DNA of 27,879 nt from an uncultured virus (IMG/VR IMGVR_UViG_3300042376_001667) (Duplodnaviria; Heunggongvirae; Uroviricota; Caudoviricetes): IMG/VR virus record IMGVR_UViG_3300042376_001667. One strand, 5' to 3'. The notes beneath the pieces are model-generated. The model was not told where the DNA came from, searched no databases, and worked only from the letters and a program-made list of their open reading frames with translations. Below are positions 7,381 through 23,623 of the stretch, one piece after another (position 1 is the stretch's first letter; every line of letters begins with the position of its first letter). The position numbers were made by a program, and so were the translations under genes.

Positions 7381-7409
7381 AACCCCACTGAAAGGTGGGG
7401 TTTTATTTT
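7381..7409 (+). terminator. Rho-independent terminator
   Basis: AACCCCAC-TGAAAG-GTGGGGTT followed by TTATTTT. Confidence 0.8.
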
Positions 7410-7418
7410 GGAGTTAAG

Positions 7419-7670
7419 ATGCCATACGATCCTAGTAGAAAAAGAGATTACAAAAAAGAATATAAGCAAGACCTGAAAACTGGAAAGTCAGGTCCAGGTA
7501 GTGATCAACATGAACGCCAGAAGGCTAGACGAATGTATGATTCTATGGGTATTGATAGAGATGGTAAGCATATAGACCACAAGAAACCAATTAGGAGTGG
7601 CGGTAAGTCTGTTAAAGGTAATTTAAGATTACGTGACCCTAGCAAGAACAGCGCTGATAACGGCAAATAG
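7419..7670 (+). CDS. Small HNH endonuclease-like protein
   Basis: HIDHKKPIRSGG....NLRL....N HNH-type motif. GGAG RBS before ATG 7419. Confidence 0.75.
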   Translation: MPYDPSRKRDYKKEYKQDLKTGKSGPGSDQHERQKARRMYDSMGIDRDGKHIDHKKPIRSGGKSVKGNLRLRDPSKNSADNGK

Positions 7671-7683
7671 TTCAACGGGTGTC

Positions 7684-7719
7684 ATGCGGGAAAATCGGTA
7701 TCTTATATGATAAGCAAGG
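7684..7719 (+). promoter_or_regulatory. Repeated promoter-like motif, copy 1 (core GTATCTTATATGATAAG)
   Basis: The 17-nt core is identical at 7698, 11350 and 12575. Each copy is intergenic and preceded by TGCG and an A-run. Confidence 0.65.
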
Positions 7720-10328: not shown

Positions 10329-10472
10329 ATGGTAAAGTTCGGAAAATTTGCATGGCCAGTAAATATTGTGAACTATGCGCAGGAAAGCTACATGCGCAAT
10401 CCCGCGTATTACCACATGTCTTTGGAGGAAATCCTCCATAAGTTTTACAGCACTTATAAGAAAGCTGTTTAA
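10329..10472 (+). CDS. 47-aa hypothetical protein (MVKFGKFAWP...YKKAV)
   Basis: AAGGAG RBS, and the ATG directly follows the upstream stop. Not in the ORF track. Confidence 0.55.
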   Translation: MVKFGKFAWPVNIVNYAQESYMRNPAYYHMSLEEILHKFYSTYKKAV

Positions 10473-10541
10473 CCCATTTAGAAGCCATTAGAGATAGTGG
10501 CTTCAATAATGTGTTAATTTTGACACAGACTTTGAAAGGAC
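10468..10541 (+). repeat. 74-bp direct repeat, copy 1 (hairpin plus RBS)
   Basis: 10475-10541 is identical to 10954-11020 over 67 nt. Contains GAAGCCATTA-GAGA-TAGTGGCTTC and ends in AAAGGAC. Confidence 0.95.
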
Positions 10542-10946: not shown

Positions 10947-11020
10947 TTTAACTCATTTAGAAGCCATTAGAGATAGTGGCTTCAATAATGTGTTAATTTT
11001 GACACAGACTTTGAAAGGAC
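10947..11020 (+). repeat. 74-bp direct repeat, copy 2
   Basis: Matches 10468-10541 with one mismatch. Confidence 0.95.
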
Positions 11021-11026
11021 CTAACT

Positions 11027-11326
11027 ATGTGGTTGCTTATTGATGATGAAAGAAATCTCAAAACAGAAGCCGTCGCAAGAACTGCTGAGGCTGGCAAAAA
11101 GCTTCTGGCATGCGGTGGCTGGGAAGTTGTTTGTTTCGATCATGATCTTGCGACAGAAGGTGAAACAGGTTATGACGTACTTGTCTGGGGTCTTGAAAAA
11201 GGCTACATTCCAAATAAAGTCCAGCTCGTGACTGCCAACCCTGTCGGAAGGTCTAATATGAAGGCTGCGCTTATTGCAGCTGGTTACGAATCTCGTGATA
11301 ACATCAATTTTGTAAAGCGTTATTAA
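11027..11326 (+). CDS. Cyclic-phosphate-processing receiver-domain protein
   Basis: LLIDDER, FDHDL, TGYD and TANPVG...M motifs characteristic of this stand-alone receiver-like family. Confidence 0.8.
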   Translation: MWLLIDDERNLKTEAVARTAEAGKKLLACGGWEVVCFDHDLATEGETGYDVLVWGLEKGYIPNKVQLVTANPVGRSNMKAALIAAGYESRDNINFVKRY

Positions 11327-11335
11327 CCTAAGATA

Positions 11336-11379
11336 TTGCGTAAAACGTAGTATCTTATATGATAAGCAAGGTGCTTATC
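11336..11379 (+). promoter_or_regulatory. Repeated promoter-like motif, copy 2
   Basis: TTGCGT-16nt-TATGAT, with the core at 11350-11366. Followed by the GATAAGCA-AGG-TGCTTATC hairpin. Confidence 0.65.
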
Positions 11380-11406
11380 TAACGCCCAAGTGGGCAAGGA
11401 GGTTCC

Positions 11407-11535
11407 GTGGAAGTAGTTGTAATCGCGGTATTCTCGTTTGGTGTCTTAAGGGTTCTGACAAAGAGTCCTCGGGCTACCATTATGGAACTCTCTGAAGAAG
11501 AGGGTTTCCTTAGTGCTCGCACGCAACCTGTGTAA
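11407..11535 (+). CDS. 42-aa small membrane-anchored protein
   Basis: Strong AAGGAGG RBS before GTG and a hydrophobic N-terminus (MEVVVIAVFSFGVLRVL). Not in the ORF track. Confidence 0.55.
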   Translation: MEVVVIAVFSFGVLRVLTKSPRATIMELSEEEGFLSARTQPV

Positions 11536-11582
11536 GAGCACTCTATCATACCATCCAAAAGGTGGTATGTTATGAGTGTTTT
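11534..11582 (+). other. Long intergenic stem-loop (possible RNase III processing site)
   Basis: AAGAGCACTC...CATACCATC-CAAAA-GGTGGTATG...GAGTGTTTT with an internal loop. Confidence 0.5.
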
Positions 11583-11607
11583 AACATAAACAATGAAAGG
11601 AGCTTTA

Positions 11608-12266: not shown

Positions 12267-12295
12267 AGACCTGAGCAGGTCTTAAAAAGGCTCAA
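12267..12295 (+). repeat. 29-bp repeat / predicted pseudoknot, copy 1
   Basis: AGACCTGAGCAGGTCTTAAAAAGGCTCAA is identical at 12516-12544. Confidence 0.9.
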
Positions 12296-12322: not shown

Positions 12323-12523
12323 ATGAGACTTTTATGTGAGAGGCCATTGCCCGAAGGGGCAGCGGTTCAGGACAGATTTGTCCTAAAGGGAAAGCAAGTA
12401 GGCTTTCCTGAGCTTCGGTTTGTCCTCGTGAAGAGGATTGGGCCGAGGTTAAGTGTGTCCGGAGACGTACTTGAGAAAGCCAAATTGGCTTTCTTTGAGT
12501 GGTCGAAGGAGGCCGAGACCTGA
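12323..12523 (+). CDS. Hypothetical protein
   Basis: GGAAAGG RBS before ATG 12323. The stop codon lies inside repeat copy 2. Confidence 0.55.
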   Translation: MRLLCERPLPEGAAVQDRFVLKGKQVGFPELRFVLVKRIGPRLSVSGDVLEKAKLAFFEWSKEAET

Positions 12524-12544
12524 GCAGGTCTTAAAAAGGCTCAA
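12516..12544 (+). repeat. 29-bp repeat / predicted pseudoknot, copy 2
   Basis: Identical to 12267-12295. Confidence 0.9.
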
Positions 12545-12560
12545 AAGTGTCCGCATAAAA

Positions 12561-12591
12561 ATGCGGAAAAAGCGGTATCTTATATGATAAG
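12561..12591 (+). promoter_or_regulatory. Repeated promoter-like motif, copy 3
   Basis: ATGCGGAAAAAGCG-GTATCTTATATGATAAG, with the core at 12575-12591. Confidence 0.65.
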
Positions 12592-12920
12592 GAGAAATCC
12601 CTATCAAGCCGGATGCGTAACCGGCAATTTCAATTGAAACTTAGATTCCGGAGTAATTCTCCGGCGTGTTGGTTGCTACGAAAAGCAATGCCTTCGACGG
12701 GAATCGTCGGCCCAGATCATAGAGGGGCGTTAATACTCGTGATGGCAGTTAGCACTGTCTCAATTGCGATGAGCAGCCATGCTAGTGGCCTCATGTCGGA
12801 TTCGTAACCGACACGCTTGGTAGGCTATCCCTTCTACCGCCAAGCTAATGAAATGAAGGAACCCATCTGAAATATGGTGGGACCACTTAAGTACATTATA
12901 AAACGTGTACTTAAGTGGTT
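12590..12920 (+). ncRNA. Putative structured non-coding RNA (unclassified)
   Basis: No RBS-led ORF, about 10 consecutive hairpins, and a long-range helix 12664-12682/12801-12816. Lies directly downstream of promoter-like copy 3. Confidence 0.6.
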
Positions 12921-12967
12921 AGTTGTTAAATTAACCAATCGTGTCTTCAACCAAAGGAGTTACTGAA

Positions 12968-13315
12968 ATGAATACTGTAAAAGAGCTCGTTAGTGCGTTT
13001 GTTTTGTTTGTTAAGATTGCGTTACTGATATTAGTAGCGTTAGTTAGCATTGCATTCTTCTCTGAAGCTAAAGCTCACGGAGCCCCTAAAATGCTGATTT
13101 GCATGGAAACTGCATTTGCAGCCGGAGAAGCGTTTGAAATGAAAGCTTCAAAAAGAAAGCTTGTGTATCCTAAGGTAGACGACTTAATCTTTGCTGCTCT
13201 AATTAAAGTAGCAATGGATAAGGGCTACAAGGCAAAGTCCTATCAAGAAGCGGTTAAAATCGGCCATGATTCATGTGCTGAAAGTAAGCTGTGGGCTGAA
13301 ATTAACTTTGAATGA
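12968..13315 (+). CDS. Hypothetical exported/membrane protein
   Basis: AAGGAG RBS. Long hydrophobic N-terminus ending in AKA-H (signal-peptide-like). Confidence 0.65.
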   Translation: MNTVKELVSAFVLFVKIALLILVALVSIAFFSEAKAHGAPKMLICMETAFAAGEAFEMKASKRKLVYPKVDDLIFAALIKVAMDKGYKAKSYQEAVKIGHDSCAESKLWAEINFE

Positions 13316-13320
13316 AAACT

Positions 13321-13347
13321 GACCTAGGCATGTCCTTAAAAGGCCTA
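13321..13347 (+). repeat. Diverged pseudoknot copy 3
   Basis: GACCTAGGCATGTCCTTAAAAGGCCTA, in which TAGGC/GCCTA replaces TGAGC/GCTCA. Confidence 0.7.
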
Positions 13348-13350
13348 TTT

Positions 13351-14204: not shown

Positions 14205-14345
14205 ATGTTATTATACCAACTGTTAGGAATCTTTTTAATACTTTTTAGAATTACCCTAATAGTTGGATTTAATTTTATCGCTATTTGGTTTTTGATACAC
14301 GCAGCACCATTTTTGTTCAAGCTGCTTTTCTGGGAATTTTTATGA
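14205..14345 (+). CDS. 46-aa hydrophobic protein coupled to the RNAP gene
   Basis: AGGAG RBS. Sequence MLLYQLLGIFLILFRITLIVGFNFIAIWFLIHAAPFLFKLLFWEFL. Its stop overlaps the RNAP ATG (ATGA). Not in the ORF track. Confidence 0.55.
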   Translation: MLLYQLLGIFLILFRITLIVGFNFIAIWFLIHAAPFLFKLLFWEFL

Positions 14346-16594
14346 AAAAGAAAATTCTTGATTCTTTAAATTCAAGAATAACAACTGAGATTTCAGGTCA
14401 CAATCCCCTTAAATATTTACTTAAGCTTAAAACAGAAGATTATATTGATACACTAATTTCTATTGTATATTTATATACTAGACCAAAGAAGGGTCATAAT
14501 AAAAATTCCATTTATCTTACAGAAGTTATTTCAGCTATCGGACATGGTATTCGTAACAAGTTCAAGCTAAAGCGTGACTCAGCATTGGCTGCTAAAACTG
14601 GCGCTTTTATGCTATACACCTTTGAGCATCTCGGATATATTCAGGTTGTTCTTGGACAAGGCTCAAAAGGACATAATATATATCTTGTGCAAGTGCTTAA
14701 TGATGATGAGATTTGTAATTTGTGGAACTCACTAGACCCTTCTCAAATTGAAAAGTTACCTTCAGAAATTCCTTACGAACCGTGGACTTCTGCAAAACAT
14801 TCAACGGGTGTCTGGCTTGTTAAGACAGGCAATAAAACAGTTTTAGACAACCTTACTCCGGAAACACACCCTATTGTCTTTAGCTGTGTTAACAGAGCAC
14901 AGCAAATAGGATGGAAAATAAACAATTGTGTTTATGATCTCCACTTGTGGGCTCTACGAAATAAAACAGACGCATTCTCTGAAATTTGGGAATTGTCTAA
15001 TGCAGAAGCAAAAGCAACTAAGCTAAGAGAAGCGAAAGCTATAGGTGACATTTCACGAAGATTTTTGAACAAGGTCTTTTATCACCTTTACTATTATGAC
15101 TTTAGAGGTCGTAAATATACCGCTACTGCATATTTGCATGAGCAAGGCTCTGACCTTGCAAGAGGTCTACTGTTAAGAGCAGATTCAAAACCAATTGGAA
15201 AAGAAGGCTTCTTTTGGCTAATGGTGTCAATTGCTTCAAATTGGGCGGGTGATGCTGGCAGAGAAGATGGTGCAAAGACTGACAAAATACCACTTCAAGA
15301 ACGATATCTTTGGGCTCTAGACAACGAAGAAATTCTATTGTCATATGCCGAAAACCCTAAAGTAAATCAAGGCTGGATGAAAGCTGATAATCCTTGGCAA
15401 TTCATTGCAGCGTGCAACGAACTAATGCGATTTAGAATCTGGCAAATGAATGTGTATGAAAACCACAAAGATGTTGTAGCTGAATATGACTACCCATCAT
15501 CTCTTGAAGTATATATTGACGGGTCAAACAATGGTAGTCAGCATCTTGCAGCATTGACTAAAGATGAAATAATTGCACCGCATGTAAATCTGGTGCCATT
15601 AAACTTGCCTGGAGATCTCTACAAGTATGTCGGTGACCATGTCTGGAAACATCTTGAAGAAGAGCTTTCTTTAATGACAAATGAAGAAATTCAGGACTGT
15701 GAACGAGTCATTGATAATCTAATTTATCTTAAAAAGCAAATAAACGCTGCTGAACCTAAAAGTGATTTTAGAAAACAACTTATAGAACAGATCAAAGAAT
15801 TTAAGTCTGAAAATGATCAGCTTATTGGGATTGCTGCACCTGTATTTTGGTCTAGAATTAAAGATGCAAAACACAAAAGAAAGATTGTGAAAAGAAATAC
15901 GATGACTATCCCGTATGGCGGAACAGCCTATGGTCTAGGTCAGCAAATCATTGATGATGCTAGAAAGCATAATATTGAACTTTTGCTTTATATGGAACAT
16001 CGGTGGGGTGCATATCTCGGAAGAGAAGTGTTTAATGACTGCAAGCGTTCTTTAGAAAAGCCTATGCAACTGCTTAAGATCTTTGAAGAGGCTGGTCGAA
16101 AAGCTGAGCAAGACGACAAGTTCTTATCCTGGACTGTGCCTGTTACAAAGTTTCCTGTAGTACAAAATTATACAGAAGGCATTGTTAAAAAGATCTGGGT
16201 ACAATATGGTCCACCGCAAGGTGTCAGAAACAGCACAGGTTACTTTGACAATACACTGCAATTAGCAATATGCTTCATTGAAGATGTTAAGCCTTCAAAA
16301 GGCAAACAATCTCAAGGTGCAAGCCCTAATATTATTCACAGCCTTGACGCTGCGCATTTGTCTATGATTGTAGCTTCCTCTGACTTTCCTGTAACGACTA
16401 TTCATGATTCTTTCGGATGTCTTCTGGCAGATATGCCTAAGTTGTTTGCAGTAACTAGACAGACATTTGTTGAGCTTTATAAACAAGATCCTTTAACGTC
16501 AATCATGAAAGATATAGGAGGTAATGCAAATGAAGTAGAACTAGGAAATCTTGATTTAAACTTGGTAATTGAATCTGAATATTGTTTTTGCTAA
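14342..16594 (+). CDS. Single-subunit DNA-directed RNA polymerase (T7-like)
   Basis: DFRGRKY, motif A IDGSNNGSQH, motif B RKIVKRNTMTIPYGG, PNIIHSLDAAH and motif C TIHDSFG. Likely start ATG 14342 (750 aa). Confidence 0.95.
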   Translation: MKKKILDSLNSRITTEISGHNPLKYLLKLKTEDYIDTLISIVYLYTRPKKGHNKNSIYLTEVISAIGHGIRNKFKLKRDSALAAKTGAFMLYTFEHLGYIQVVLGQGSKGHNIYLVQVLNDDEICNLWNSLDPSQIEKLPSEIPYEPWTSAKHSTGVWLVKTGNKTVLDNLTPETHPIVFSCVNRAQQIGWKINNCVYDLHLWALRNKTDAFSEIWELSNAEAKATKLREAKAIGDISRRFLNKVFYHLYYYDFRGRKYTATAYLHEQGSDLARGLLLRADSKPIGKEGFFWLMVSIASNWAGDAGREDGAKTDKIPLQERYLWALDNEEILLSYAENPKVNQGWMKADNPWQFIAACNELMRFRIWQMNVYENHKDVVAEYDYPSSLEVYIDGSNNGSQHLAALTKDEIIAPHVNLVPLNLPGDLYKYVGDHVWKHLEEELSLMTNEEIQDCERVIDNLIYLKKQINAAEPKSDFRKQLIEQIKEFKSENDQLIGIAAPVFWSRIKDAKHKRKIVKRNTMTIPYGGTAYGLGQQIIDDARKHNIELLLYMEHRWGAYLGREVFNDCKRSLEKPMQLLKIFEEAGRKAEQDDKFLSWTVPVTKFPVVQNYTEGIVKKIWVQYGPPQGVRNSTGYFDNTLQLAICFIEDVKPSKGKQSQGASPNIIHSLDAAHLSMIVASSDFPVTTIHDSFGCLLADMPKLFAVTRQTFVELYKQDPLTSIMKDIGGNANEVELGNLDLNLVIESEYCFC

Positions 16595-22311: not shown

Positions 22312-23132
22312 CAATAGCAATAATTGATGGAGATGTTTTGTGCTACCAAGCATGTAAGCCTCGTTGGGAAAAGAAAGCGAGAATTGAGGATGGAGTTTCT
22401 TTCATATCACTGGATGACAGTGGCAGTCGAATACCGCTTGAGTGGACAAAAGATGAAGATAGACATTACTTGGAAGAATCTTGGGAAAATCTCAAGAAAG
22501 ATTTGAGTTCACTTCTTGACGTTCTTTTTTGTACGGAATATTTAATGGCTGTAAAAGGCTCTGGAAATTTCAGAAACAGTCTGTACCCAGAGTATAAACT
22601 TAATCGACATGCAGATCCTAATAAACAAAACCACTTTGTTCCAACACTTAGAAAATTAGCTGTTGCTGAAGATTTAGCAGTAGAAGCTACTGGAAGAGAA
22701 GCTGATGATTTGATGCGAATGTGGGCCGAAGAGGCAATCGCATCCGGTGATGAGTATGTAATTTGCTCGATAGATAAAGACTTAAAATGTATTCCAGGTA
22801 AACACTACTTGATGCATAAAAAAGAGTTTATAACAGTAAGTCCAGATGAAGCTCTTAGACACTATTATGAGCAACTTTTAAAAGGCGATCCAACAGATAA
22901 TATACCTGGAGTGCCACGTGTAGGCGAGGTTAAGGCTAAAAAGTTTCTAGAAAATTGTCAAACTGAAAATGAATTTCAAGAAGCCGTTGTAGACCAATAC
23001 TTAATGGCGTATGGCGATGATTGGAAACAATATCTGCTGAGTAATGGAAAAATGATTTATCTTCAGAAACATAAAAATGACTACTTTAAAATAGAAGATT
23101 GGCCGATAGTACGAGAGTTAGGAGGTTTATGA
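22308..23132 (+). CDS. 5'-3' exonuclease (T7 gp6/FEN-like)
   Basis: IIDGDVL, NFR...PEYK.NR, EADD, SIDKDL..IPG and GDPTDNIPG...VG..KA motifs. Confidence 0.9.
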   Translation: MTIAIIDGDVLCYQACKPRWEKKARIEDGVSFISLDDSGSRIPLEWTKDEDRHYLEESWENLKKDLSSLLDVLFCTEYLMAVKGSGNFRNSLYPEYKLNRHADPNKQNHFVPTLRKLAVAEDLAVEATGREADDLMRMWAEEAIASGDEYVICSIDKDLKCIPGKHYLMHKKEFITVSPDEALRHYYEQLLKGDPTDNIPGVPRVGEVKAKKFLENCQTENEFQEAVVDQYLMAYGDDWKQYLLSNGKMIYLQKHKNDYFKIEDWPIVRELGGL

Positions 23133-23623
23133 AATTTGAAGGTATGGTGCCTTCCATCTCAATTCCAGTTTCTATTCCAAAACAAACACGTTTTAATAAT
23201 GGACACTGGTGCTTCCCTGAGCAGATGGGAGACTCAGTAGGGTTTATCTATGTAATACGTGATACAATTCTTGAGAGATTTTACCTAGGTAAGAAACTGT
23301 TTGTAGGTACAGGTAAGCTTAACAAAGGTAAGGAATCTAATTGGAAAAAGTACACATCTTCCTCAAAAGTTTTAAATGAACTCTTAAAGCATAGACCTAA
23401 AGAAGAGTTTGATTTTGTTTGTTTAGAGCAATATAAAACAAAAGGCACATTGTCATATTCAGAGACATGGTCTTTATGTTTTGTAGAAGCACCTACAAAC
23501 AAGATGTGGTATAACACTTTGATTGAAAAAGTTTCATGGCCTGTTAAAGAGCCTATCACAGCCAGGCACAGAGATAGATTATTTAAGGTCTGTAATGGAC
23601 ACAATTTCAAGGATGAGATATGA
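23129..23623 (+). CDS. GIY-YIG-like endonuclease
   Basis: GFIYVI.......YLGKK, ESNWKKY.SS and later E and YN residues. GGAGG RBS before ATG 23129. Confidence 0.7.
   Translation: MKFEGMVPSISIPVSIPKQTRFNNGHWCFPEQMGDSVGFIYVIRDTILERFYLGKKLFVGTGKLNKGKESNWKKYTSSSKVLNELLKHRPKEEFDFVCLEQYKTKGTLSYSETWSLCFVEAPTNKMWYNTLIEKVSWPVKEPITARHRDRLFKVCNGHNFKDEI

What the first reader, a model, noticed from the sequence alone, without database searches (positions are those of the whole stretch)
12590..12920. Candidate novel ~330-nt structured ncRNA with its own promoter-like element
Seen: a gene-free stretch in an otherwise tightly packed genome, made of back-to-back stems. These include GCCGG/CCGGC (12608-25), CCGGAG/CTCCGG (12648-64), CGACG/CGTCG (12695-709), GCCC/GGGC (12710-28), GGCAGT/ACTGTC (12744-59) within TCGTGAT/ATTGCGA, GCCA/TGGC (12776-89), GCTTGG/CCAAGC (12815-45), CCCATC/GGTGGG and a 14-bp terminal stem. 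Several stems need GU pairs on the + strand, consistent with RNA. It is not tRNA-like and I recognise no known family. Inference: an early phage RNA, possibly a decoy or scaffold.
Basis: partly seen in the sequence, partly recalled or inferred. Interest (0 to 1): 0.8.

Follow-up and report, generated by a model that had tools for sequence, protein, structure and literature searches.

The report
New folded RNA in lake phage
This gene-free stretch of an uncultured lake-water phage encodes a roughly 325-base RNA that folds into ten hairpins and two pseudoknots, is kept in shape by matching mutations in a distant relative, fits no catalogued RNA family, and has an unknown job.

Summary
Window 12597-12921 (+) has no credible gene. 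It folds far better than shuffles (z -4.66). It sits behind one of three copies of a conserved early promoter-like element.

Nothing matches in Rfam 15, and there is no tRNA or tmRNA. The 64-aa ORF is not conserved.

Only one other viral contig (L024) carries the same 240-nt core, at 86% identity, with unrelated genes on both sides. All 13 helices I defined pair in both sequences. By my hand count, 13 pairs changed on both sides and 6 on one side. The G-U pairs fit only the + strand.

The last ~105 nt form a shared 3' "handle": hairpin H8 with an H-type pseudoknot, then an invariant hairpin H9, then a long hairpin H10. Six distinct sequences carry it, including phages whose RNA polymerases are only 38-98% identical to the window's. 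Their 5' parts are unrelated. The pseudoknot and H10 covary.

The handle is single-copy, lies upstream of the polymerase gene on the same strand, and is missing from one near-complete relative. It is therefore accessory.

Function is inferred only. My best guess is an early, stable, protein-binding RNA with a swappable 5' domain. A put-like or processing element acting in cis is nearly as likely. No RNA data exist.

The parts
12516..12544 (+). Repeated intergenic hairpin cassette (6-bp stem, then an A-rich tail). Copies at 12267, 12516 and 13320.
   Evidence: family D4 (two copies 100% identical, the third 69%). Also present upstream of the same promoter in L004.
12561..12596 (+). Conserved early promoter-like element P3. 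My reading is -35-like 12561-66, a 16-nt spacer and -10-like TATGAT at 12583-88. A small hairpin 12551-56/12561-66 overlaps the -35. The inferred RNA start is about 12597-12599.
   Evidence: Three + strand copies in the window (D2). 17-mer search with up to 3 mismatches: one to three copies in each of L004, L006, L009, L011, L012, L014, most of them 30-60 nt upstream of a Shine-Dalgarno and start codon. In the near-complete relative G005 there are 3 forward copies, all in the 7 kb before the RNA polymerase gene, and 0 in the reversed-pattern control. The hexamer assignment and the start site are inferred. The sigma-70 scan did not list it.
12597..12647 (+). 5' leader. It has a 19-nt stretch shared with L004 (12590-12608), hairpin H0 12608-12625 (terminator-type, weak U tail) and a 12-nt perfect palindrome at 12628-12639. 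This part is absent from the L024 homologue.
   Evidence: H0 was flagged as terminator-like. The same hairpin type carries T11 and T15 tails in L024 and L038. The motif occurs twice in the window against 0.04 expected.
12648..12814 (+). 5' core.
- H1 12648-53/12659-64
- H2 12672-77/12684-89
- H3 12695-99/12705-09
- H4 12710-13/12725-28
- Pseudoknot A: H4 loop 12716-20 pairs with 12739-43
- H5 12744-49/12754-59
- H6 12769-73/12790-94 plus 12776-79/12786-89
- H7 12795-99/12808-12
   Evidence: Every helix pairs in both the window and L024. Changes on both sides of a pair, by my count: H1 3, H2 2, H3 1, H4 1, PK-A 1, H5 1, H6 1. RNAalifold on the plain MAFFT alignment gives 8 of 62 pairs changed on both sides. 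Consensus energy z -3.06, 0 of 100 column shuffles as good.
12815..12921 (+). 3' handle.
- H8 12815-24/12833-45
- Pseudoknot B: H8 loop 12830-34 pairs with 12855-59
- An AA linker
- H9 12862-67/12876-81 (invariant)
- H10 12882-95/12906-19, directly abutting H9
   Evidence: Found in six distinct sequences. Pseudoknot B is a perfect 5-nt complement in 6 of 6, in 4 different versions. Pair counts: 94.6% of 147 cells paired against 34-47% when partners are slid; 6 of 25 pairs changed on both sides (2 in pseudoknot B, 4 in H10); H9's 6 pairs never vary. The handle is single-copy in four near-complete genomes.
12613..12807 (+). 64-aa ORF inside the RNA. Judged not to be a gene.
   Evidence: No Shine-Dalgarno before it. 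No Pfam or PHROG hit. No relative in the 5.8-billion-cluster protein collection within 35-112 aa. In L024 the frame is cut by a stop so that only 40 codons remain, and a stretch of about 9 codons in the middle is frame-shifted. tblastx matches in several frames on both strands with similar scores.
12953..13315 (+). First gene after the RNA: Shine-Dalgarno at about 12953-59, ATG at 12968, 115 aa, hydrophobic N-terminus, no family.
   Evidence: The genes that follow the handle in L024, L018 and L019 are unrelated to it.

Best explanation
Window 12597-12921 (+) encodes an accessory, early-expressed, highly structured RNA of an uncultured lake-water phage that has its own single-subunit RNA polymerase.

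Shown:
- The + strand RNA fold is under selection: ten hairpins and two H-type pseudoknots.
- The RNA is built from two modules. One is a 5' core (12648-12814), found so far in only one other phage. The other is a ~105-nt 3' handle (12815-12921), which five other sequences attach to unrelated 5' parts.
- The unit moves or persists independently of its neighbouring genes and is dispensable for the phage group.

Inferred:
- Host RNA polymerase starts at the conserved early promoter-like element about 12597.
- The compact handle (pseudoknot stacked on two abutting hairpins) defines and protects the 3' end. In phages where the unit lies inside an operon, the handle marks a processing site. Either way a discrete stable RNA accumulates early.
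- The 5' core is the working part. It binds and sequesters or redirects a host or phage protein (decoy or scaffold). Its replacement by other folded domains in close relatives would reflect selection to match different targets.
For: Structure. The stretch folds with z -4.66 against shuffles. The core is 86% identical over 236 nt to L024. All 13 helices pair in both sequences with no non-standard pair among 66 and 65 pairs. By my count, 13 pairs changed on both sides and 6 on one side. RNAalifold gives 8 of 62 pairs changed on both sides, with consensus energy z -3.06, 0 of 100.

Strand. The kept helices hold 5 (window) and 7 (L024) G-U pairs, which would be A-C mismatches on the other strand.

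Handle. There are six distinct sequences. Pseudoknot B is complementary in 6 of 6, in 4 versions. 94.6% of cells are paired against 34-47% for slid controls, and the covariation score is 0.304 against 0.146 +/- 0.025, 0 of 500 shuffles.

Modular and mobile.
- L004, whose RNA polymerase is 98% identical, keeps the promoter, the 19-nt leader and the handle but has a different interior.
- Window-L024 similarity is confined to the element and the promoter.
- The phages carrying the handle have polymerases 98, 62-68, 55 and 38% identical to the window's.

Accessory. The handle model finds one copy in each of G002-G005 and none in G007, which is 94% complete and 78% identical in polymerase.

Stable-RNA setting. 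In L018 the unit starts directly after a tRNA-Met gene.

Not coding. No known family.
Against: There is no RNA evidence of any kind, so the start, the end and the abundance are all inferred.

The promoter assignment rests on conservation and position only. The sigma-70 scan did not list it.

In L024 the unit has no promoter of its own, follows a 64-aa ORF and runs straight into the next gene's ribosome-binding site. In 5 of 6 members H10 has no U tract, while true terminators of the same phages carry T11-T15. Both points fit a cis-acting element inside a longer transcript at least as well.

Only two sequences carry the core, so its covariation rests on one pairwise comparison. Four helices (H1, H3, H4, H8a) had to be re-registered by one column relative to the MAFFT alignment. 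The structure conservation index was only marginally above shuffles (0.73 against 0.65, 5 of 100 as high).

No binding partner is indicated by anything in the data.

A short frame of 39-40 codons survives in both sequences.
Confidence: 0.4

Rival explanations
1. The unit is a cis-acting transcription element. The handle, as nascent RNA, binds the host RNA polymerase that made it and makes it resistant to pausing and termination, as HK022 put RNA does. Early transcription then reaches the phage polymerase gene.
For: The handle always lies on the coding strand upstream of the phage RNA polymerase gene, 1.4 to 12.9 kb away. In the window and L004 it is about 140-220 nt behind an early promoter-like element. 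H9 and H10 are two directly abutting stem-loops preceded by a pseudoknot.

In the passages of PMC9378689 that I read, putRNA is about 70 nt long, has two stem-loops with a triplex in the first, and lies just behind PL or about 270 nt behind PR.

About 35 nt are identical across phages whose polymerases are 38-98% identical. That fits contact with a very conserved machine. H10 has no U tract in 5 of 6 members, so transcription probably runs on.
Against: The handle is absent from a 94%-complete relative, so it cannot be essential for reaching the polymerase gene.

The scan finds no terminator-like site on the + strand between the element and the polymerase gene in the window.

This reading does not explain the 170-nt core kept by compensatory change, nor the swapped 5' domains.

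Confidence: 0.2
2. The unit is RNA punctuation. It would be a processing and stability cassette inside a polycistronic early transcript, like the RNase III sites between T7 early genes. Cleavage at the handle would leave hairpin-protected ends that set the half-lives of the flanking messages.
For: The early region is full of repeated hairpin cassettes between genes (families D1, D2, D4). The unit lies between ORFs in L024 and between a tRNA and an ORF in L018. H9 stacked on H10 gives about 20 bp of helix. A hairpin identical to H9 ends genes as an ordinary terminator stem in five other groups of viral contigs. The T7 parallel is from memory.
Against: A processing site needs about 60 nt, not 325. 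The core's ten conserved helices and the first pseudoknot would be unexplained. The cassette is single-copy per genome, whereas punctuation elements recur at many gene boundaries.
Confidence: 0.15
3. The stretch encodes a small hydrophobic protein, from the 64-aa ORF or its 39-aa inner frame, and the RNA structure is incidental.
For: A frame of 39-40 codons ending at the same stop survives in both the window and L024. Two indels of opposite sign restore the frame. In the last 26 codons I count 5 synonymous and 3 non-synonymous differences (my reading).
Against: There is no Shine-Dalgarno, while neighbouring genes have strong ones. About nine codons in the middle are frame-shifted between the two sequences, and the first 24 codons have no counterpart. 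No relative exists in the protein collection, and there is no Pfam or PHROG hit. tblastx matches in several frames on both strands. Most of the synonymous changes are the two halves of compensated base pairs. Helices outside the frame (H1, H2, H8) covary as well.
Confidence: 0.05
4. The unit is leftover regulatory debris. Recombination between mobile promoter and terminator cassettes would have piled up terminator-type hairpins (H0, H7, H9) and spacers with no function of their own.
For: H0 and H7 share the loop and stem type of true terminators in L024 and L038. H9 is a terminator stem elsewhere and resembles the window's own strong terminator at 7381-7402. The locus is a recombination hot spot. 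The titles and abstract starts of PMC2839356 and PMC4122927, seen in the listing, describe such cassettes in T4-type phages.
Against: Debris would not keep 13 helices through 13 double and 6 single compensating changes. It would not keep a pseudoknot complementary in four different versions. It would not hold 86% identity between phages whose polymerases are 62-68% identical.
Confidence: 0.07
5. The unit works at the DNA level, as a replication origin or packaging site, and the hairpins are DNA structures or protein-binding sites.
For: It is single-copy per genome. It has a long invariant stretch. It lies in the early region, where T7-type origins lie (from memory). It holds a 12-nt perfect palindrome at 12628-39.
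Against: It is absent from a near-complete relative. The G-U pairs work on one strand only, and the pseudoknots point to RNA. GC content is above the genome mean rather than AT-rich.
Confidence: 0.03

Closest known systems
HK022 put RNA (putL, putR), a cis-acting RNA that makes host RNA polymerase termination-resistant (passages of PMC9378689 read)
   Same: It lies downstream of early promoters of a phage, either directly or about 270 nt behind the start. Two adjoining stem-loops form the core, with extra tertiary pairing in the first. The sequence is highly conserved. No dedicated protein is needed.
   Different: The handle here is about 105 nt and contains a true H-type pseudoknot. It comes attached to a further 170-nt folded core. 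It is missing from a close relative. No sequence likeness was or could be tested, and no terminators are seen downstream.
T4 small stable RNAs C and D from the tRNA gene cluster (from memory; no paper read)
   Same: They are phage-encoded, stable, structured RNAs of unknown function, made early and processed with tRNAs. In L018 the unit starts right after a tRNA-Met gene.
   Different: No sequence or structure likeness was tested. In the window there is no tRNA gene and the RNA has its own promoter-like element.
PeSL promoter/stem-loop cassettes of T4-type phages (PMC2839356, PMC4122927; titles and abstract starts seen in the listing)
   Same: Conserved hairpin-plus-early-promoter cassettes flank variable cargo, and close relatives differ by swaps of what lies between them.
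   Different: Those cassettes shuffle protein genes. Here the cargo is a folded RNA and the 3' boundary of the swap is itself a structured RNA module. The phage group is also different (podovirus-like, with a T7-type polymerase).
GOLLD and ROOL, large ornate RNAs of phages and prophages (abstract of PMC12286853 seen in the listing; the link to tRNA genes is from memory)
   Same: They are phage-borne, pseudoknot-rich, non-coding RNAs of unknown function. One was first seen in lake metagenomes.
   Different: They are two to three times larger. There is no Rfam match to either. No sign of multimer formation could be tested, beyond a palindromic 6-mer kept single-stranded in both core sequences.
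tmRNA
   Same: It has a pseudoknot followed at once by an alanine codon and a 20-codon frame with no ribosome-binding site. The stop of that frame lies in a hairpin loop, and another pseudoknot follows.
   Different: There is no tRNA-like domain. ARAGORN finds nothing at default or 95% thresholds. No tmRNA model matches even at E 10. The 'tag' does not end in the usual hydrophobic residues (that detail is from memory).
RNase III processing hairpins between T7 early genes (from memory)
   Same: They are structured intercistronic RNA in the host-transcribed early region of a phage with its own polymerase.
   Different: Those are single ~60-nt hairpins repeated at several gene boundaries. This is a single-copy, 325-nt, multi-domain fold.

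Membership tests
Any Rfam 15 family (4227 models, including GOLLD, ROOL, tmRNA, Y RNA, riboswitches and ribozymes) | A covariance-model match at or near the gathering score | tested here: not met
   There were 0 matches at gathering score over the whole window. At E up to 10 on 12400-13100 there were five hits of 11-17 bits against gathering scores of 40-105. In five relatives only two true tRNAs in L018 reach their gathering score.
tRNA / tmRNA | A cloverleaf or tRNA-like domain with an acceptor stem and T arm | tested here: not met
   ARAGORN found 0 genes in the window. It found 0 in five of six family members at the relaxed -ps setting, where the only hit was the true tRNA-Met of L018. The hits at 80% threshold with introns allowed have implausible introns of up to 586 nt.
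tmRNA | A pseudoknot, then a resume codon and short tag frame ending in a hairpin loop, then further pseudoknots | tested here: inconclusive
   The layout is present at 12710-12860. The same nucleotides are explained by the covarying helices H5-H7, and the tRNA-like half is missing.
HK022 put-type antiterminator RNA | Position behind an early promoter, on the transcript that must read through | tested here: met
   The handle lies about 140-220 nt behind the promoter-like element in L004 and the window and upstream of the polymerase gene on the same strand in all five genomes. The promoter itself is inferred.
HK022 put-type antiterminator RNA | Two adjoining stem-loops of about 70 nt that bind the polymerase zinc-binding domain and suppress termination | not testable with these tools
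   Two abutting stem-loops, H9 and H10, are supported. Binding and antitermination need experiments. No put sequence or model was on hand for comparison.
Lambda-type nut site (boxA plus boxB) | A single-stranded boxA followed by a short boxB hairpin bound by an N-type protein | not tested
   This is only a resemblance recalled from memory, between the pyrimidine-rich H8 loop and boxA and between the H9 loop and boxB. Here the boxA-like bases are paired in pseudoknot B. No N-like protein was looked for.
Type III toxin-antitoxin RNA antitoxin | Tandem direct repeats of about 35 nt followed by a toxin gene | tested here: not met
   No direct-repeat family lies inside 12597-12921. The downstream genes differ among members.
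Intrinsic terminator (for H10) | A GC-rich hairpin followed directly by a U tract | tested here: not met
   The window tail has 6 T in 9. The other five members have no T run. H10 was not listed by the scan. True terminators of the same phages carry T11 and T15.
Small protein gene | A ribosome-binding site, a conserved frame and relatives | tested here: not met
   Only proteins of 35-112 aa were searched.
PeSL-like mobile regulatory cassette (applies to the flanks only) | A repeated hairpin-plus-early-promoter motif bounding swapped cargo | tested here: met
   Families D2 and D4 each have three copies. Window and L004 share the cassette and the handle but not the interior.

The most novel reading that the evidence does not exclude
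The six sequences are members of a modular 'handle plus cargo' RNA system of lake phages. A nearly invariant 3' handle docks every member onto one conserved machine: either the host RNA polymerase, in the manner of put RNA, or an RNA-decay or processing enzyme. The 5' domain is a swappable effector that phages exchange through cassette recombination. Each version would mimic or trap a different host factor, for example a defence protein or an RNA-repair or tRNA-targeting enzyme. A cyclic-phosphate-processing receiver-domain gene and a nucleotidyltransferase-like gene lie 1.3-2 kb upstream. That would make it an RNA counterpart of the protein anti-defence islands of phage early regions.
Probability: 0.15. 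Interest if true: 0.85.

Novelty: new variant of a known kind. Interest (0 to 1): 0.58.

Why it matters
Phage early regions are where host takeover and counter-defence functions sit, and nearly all known ones are proteins. This stretch is a well-supported folded RNA placed there, and it has an unusual architecture. It combines a 3' module conserved almost to the letter across phages with very different polymerases with 5' domains that are swapped between close relatives.

If the handle turns out to dock onto RNA polymerase or a nuclease, it would be a second natural example of a put-like RNA device, or a new kind of RNA end-protection. It would also be a portable part for RNA engineering. If the cores are decoys, they point to host targets in uncultured freshwater bacteria.

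Even with function unknown, the family gives a defined covariance model that can be searched in larger data.

Tried and rejected
- Known RNA families: none found.
- tRNA and tmRNA: none found. The tmRNA-like layout was considered and dropped for lack of a tRNA-like domain.
- DNA likeness to 50,697 phage records: no match for 12400-13100.
- The window's own assembly is not held. The nearest record, G001, is identical over the stretch, so it adds nothing.
- Sequencing runs: no RNA holder is listed. Contigs of four DNA runs showed no other letters and no indels over the parts they covered, so they gave no extra variants.
- More homologues of the core:
  - An exact 18-mer from H7 found only the window's record and the L024 contig.
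  - The leader 18-mer found only the window's record and the L004 contig.
  - The proteins flanking the L024 copy have no relatives in viral contigs.
  - The metagenome scan with the handle pattern gave one new member, L038, plus two copies of L018.
  - The loop-degenerate handle pattern gave nothing new in viral contigs.
- Host or prophage origin of H9: there were 0 matches to the 20-mer in genomes of 185,579 species.
- Integrase or attachment-site idea: no integrase appears among 35 ORFs.
- Csr/Rsm-type sponge: only one loop carries a GGA motif (my reading).
- Leader pairing: the 10-nt pairing of 12600-09 with the 5' arm of H8, predicted in the MFE, is not shared by L004 or L024, so I give it no weight.
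- Automatic search for further loop-to-downstream pairings was noisy.
- Two literature searches for phage early-region pseudoknotted non-coding RNAs and put RNA listed nothing describing this element. I made no search by sequence in papers.
- Earlier notes of this scan: nothing at this place or with this sequence.
Full report
WHAT THE WINDOW IS. The window comes from a tailed phage with a single-subunit, T7-type RNA polymerase (14285-16594). Its closest named relative is only 34% identical in protein. Downstream lie a family-A DNA polymerase, a primase-helicase, an exonuclease and a ribonucleotide reductase. Upstream lie tail and lysis genes. All genes are on the + strand. A strong terminator at 7381-7402 closes the late genes, and the early region starts at about 7685. 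DNA runs that hold the stretch are lake-water metagenomes: three hold at least 89% of the sampled words, and one of those may be the source.

THE OBSERVATION. The stretch 12590-12920 folds at -119.7 kcal/mol against -92.4 +/- 5.9 for 100 shuffles (z -4.66, 0 of 100 as good). The reverse strand folds as well (z -4.96), so energy does not choose the strand. There is no tRNA or tmRNA. No Rfam 15 family matches at gathering score in the whole window, and only noise appears at E up to 10.

The "promoter-like element" is a 35-nt repeat with three + strand copies, at 7685, 11337 and 12562. The same 17-nt core, with up to 3 mismatches, recurs one to three times in each of seven related loci. In most cases it sits 30-60 nt upstream of a ribosome-binding site and start codon. 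In the near-complete relative G005 all three forward copies lie in the 7 kb before the polymerase gene. I read it as a host-polymerase early promoter (-35-like 12561-66, 16-nt spacer, TATGAT 12583-88). That is inference: the generic sigma-70 scan did not list it, because the -35 is weak.

RELATIVES AND THE CORE. Searching viral contigs with the polymerase gave 15 loci. L004 has a 98% identical polymerase. It shares the hairpin-plus-promoter cassette, a 19-nt leader and the last ~70 nt with the window, but the interior is a different sequence of about 150 nt, and a further ~240 nt of gene-free sequence follows.

A scan with a 20-mer from the window's penultimate hairpin gave 16 loci. One of them, L024, comes from an 81.5-kb contig with terminal repeats and carries the window's core: 85.6% identity over 236 nt (87% mean column identity). 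Nothing else in 1.5 kb on either side is alike except the promoter element. The L024 phage's polymerase is 62-68% identical to the window's.

I defined 13 helices. My script confirmed that each pairs in both sequences, with no non-standard pair among 66 and 65 pairs. Comparing the arm sequences printed, I count pairs changed on both sides as follows:

| Helix | Pairs changed on both sides |
|---|---|
| H1 | 3 |
| H2 | 2 |
| H3 | 1 |
| H4 | 1 |
| Pseudoknot A | 1 |
| H5 | 1 |
| H6 | 1 |
| Outer H8 | 3 |
| Total | 13 |

I also count 6 pairs changed on one side through G-U, and two loop-closing pairs lost (the sixth pairs of H2 and H5).

This is a hand count. In the plain MAFFT alignment H1, H3, H4 and outer H8 are offset by one column. 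RNAalifold on that alignment reports 8 of 62 pairs changed on both sides. Column shuffles give consensus energy z -3.06 (0 of 100 as good), but the structure conservation index is only 0.73 against 0.65 (5 of 100 as high).

The kept helices contain 5 (window) and 7 (L024) G-U pairs. These would be mismatches on the other strand, so the RNA is the + strand.

Pseudoknot A joins the H4 loop (12716-20) to 12739-43. Both of its stems show a change on both sides.

THE 3' HANDLE. Six distinct sequences share the last ~105 nt: the window, L024, L004/L021, L018 (the same as L027, L039 and L040), L019, and L038 from the metagenome scan. The handle has these parts:
- A hairpin, H8, of quite different sequence in each lineage.
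- A 5-nt stretch of the H8 loop that is perfectly complementary to the 5 nt lying two bases before the next hairpin. This holds in 6 of 6 sequences, in four different versions. This is pseudoknot B.
- A hairpin, H9, of 6 bp with an 8-nt loop that is identical in all members. L038 has one loop change.
- Directly abutting H9, a long hairpin, H10.

On alignment A4, 94.6% of 147 cells pair, against 34-47% when partners are slid by 1-3 columns. 6 of 25 pairs changed on both sides (2 in pseudoknot B, 4 in H10). The covariation score is 0.304 against 0.146 +/- 0.025, reached by 0 of 500 shuffles. H9's six pairs never vary and so say nothing. In A4 the L019 row is misaligned by four columns in the H8 loop, which causes the two unpaired cells in pseudoknot B. 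One search shows that L019's pairing is intact.

About 35 nt around H9 are identical among phages whose polymerases are 98, 62-68, 55 and 38% identical to the window's.

A covariance model of the handle finds exactly one strong copy in each of the four near-complete genomes G002-G005 (the remaining weak hits are reverse-strand or partial matches to the H10 region). Each copy lies on the polymerase strand, 1.8 to 12.9 kb upstream of that gene. The model finds none in G007, which is 94% complete and has a 78% identical polymerase. The unit is therefore accessory.

WHAT LIES 5' OF THE HANDLE ELSEWHERE.
- In L018 a true tRNA-Met gene ends about 85 nt before H8, and a tRNA-Leu lies 0.5 kb further on.
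- L018 and L038 appear to share another small pseudoknot just before H8. This is my reading and was not counted formally.
- In L024 the unit follows a 64-aa ORF with no promoter of its own and runs into the next gene's ribosome-binding site. A canonical terminator with T11 comes only after that gene.
- H10 has no U tract in 5 of 6 members.
- The window's first hairpin H0 (12608-25) and H7 share stem and loop type with the true terminators of L024 and L038.
- H9 itself is used as an ordinary terminator stem after genes in five other, unrelated groups of viral contigs (10 of the 16 loci). It occurs in none of 185,579 species' genomes.

So the RNA is partly built from terminator-type hairpins. 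The locus behaves like the mobile promoter/stem-loop cassettes described for T4-type phages (PMC2839356 and PMC4122927; only titles and abstract starts seen).

IS IT CODING? The evidence is mostly against:
- The 64-aa ORF (12613-12807) has no ribosome-binding site.
- It has no Pfam or PHROG family.
- It has no relative among proteins of 35-112 aa in the large collection.
- In L024 an in-frame stop leaves only 40 codons, and two indels of opposite sign shift about nine codons in between.
- tblastx scores are similar in several frames on both strands.

A 39-40-codon frame does survive in both sequences, so a small peptide cannot be excluded. Most synonymous differences, however, are the two halves of compensated pairs.

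HOW IT MOST LIKELY WORKS. The following is shown:
- A + strand RNA fold is under selection.
- The RNA has a two-module build.
- It is independent of neighbouring genes.
- It is single-copy.
- It has an accessory distribution.
- It lies in the early region upstream of the polymerase gene.

The following is inferred. Host polymerase starts near 12597. The handle forms a compact, nuclease-resistant 3' end or processing site, so that a stable RNA of about 325 nt accumulates early. The core then binds a host or phage protein. I put this at 0.4.

The main rival, at 0.2, is a put-like cis-acting antiterminator. According to the passages of PMC9378689 that I read, HK022 put RNA is about 70 nt long, has two stem-loops with a triplex, lies behind early promoters and acts on host polymerase without a protein. 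The handle's position, its two abutting stem-loops and its extreme conservation fit that description. Its absence from a close relative, the lack of terminator-like sites downstream and the unexplained core do not fit.

The remaining readings and their odds:

| Reading | Odds |
|---|---|
| Processing or stability punctuation | 0.15 |
| Regulatory debris | 0.07 |
| Small protein | 0.05 |
| DNA-level site | 0.03 |

LIMITS. There is no transcript evidence. The core's covariation rests on two sequences. The promoter is inferred. The host is unknown. Earlier notes of this scan list several other uncatalogued pseudoknotted RNAs in phage early cassettes. I did not test those notes. They suggest the kind is common, which tempers the surprise but not the reality of this family.

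Noticed in passing
window 11372-11592: The stretch behind promoter copy P2 also folds far better than shuffles (z -4.75, 0 of 200). It is about 91% identical to L004. It holds a 42-aa ORF with a good ribosome-binding site (37 of 42 residues kept) and ends in a long invariant hairpin. It could be a small protein gene, a second structured RNA, or both.
   Followed up: partly
window 10468-10541 and 10947-11020: A 74-nt direct repeat (99% identical) brackets a 132-aa gene with a weak nucleotidyltransferase match. It looks like a regulatory cassette duplicated by insertion of that gene.
   Followed up: no
window 11027-11326: A 99-aa protein matches the cyclic-phosphate-processing receiver domain (Pfam cREC_REC, E 2e-17). 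It lies next to the nucleotidyltransferase-like gene, which may make an RNA-repair-type pair in the early region.
   Followed up: no
window 12267-12295, 12516-12544, 13320-13348: A small hairpin with an A-rich tail is repeated three times between early genes. Two copies are identical. It has no U tract, so it is not a classical terminator. It may be a processing or protein-binding site.
   Followed up: no
L020, L022, L023, L025, L026, L028, L029, L030, L032, L033 (match at 1501-1520; at 1186-1205 in L020): The exact 20-nt H9 hairpin, loop included, closes genes as an ordinary terminator stem in five unrelated groups of viral contigs. It is absent from genomes of 185,579 bacterial and archaeal species. 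The window's own late terminator at 7381-7402 is a close variant. Why the loop is kept to the letter is unexplained.
   Followed up: partly
G004:C1:39586-42345 (contig of L024): The RNA polymerase match is split at residue 544 by about 500 nt that stay in one 926-aa open frame. This may be an intein or an inserted domain in the polymerase.
   Followed up: no
L004 2195-2433: After its handle, the close relative has a further ~240 nt without a gene, including another terminator-type hairpin of the H0/H7 kind without a U tract. The whole 486-nt stretch has z -2.74.
   Followed up: partly
L012 2773-2978: A more distant relative (polymerase 71% identical) has a different ~200-nt hairpin-rich, gene-free stretch behind the same promoter type and a 36-aa ORF. 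Folded non-coding cargo may be common in early cassettes of this phage group.
   Followed up: no
window 7395-7670 and 23099-23623: There is a weak Pfam HNH-endonuclease match (E 0.007, below Pfam's cut-off) just before the early region. A SegE-type GIY-YIG endonuclease gene lies between the exonuclease and primase-helicase genes. Both are probably homing endonucleases.
   Followed up: no
L004 1300-1345; L006 2140-2185 and 2555-2600: In some relatives the promoter core is preceded by its own inverted copy. This forms a large inverted repeat around the -35 region and may be an operator.
   Followed up: no
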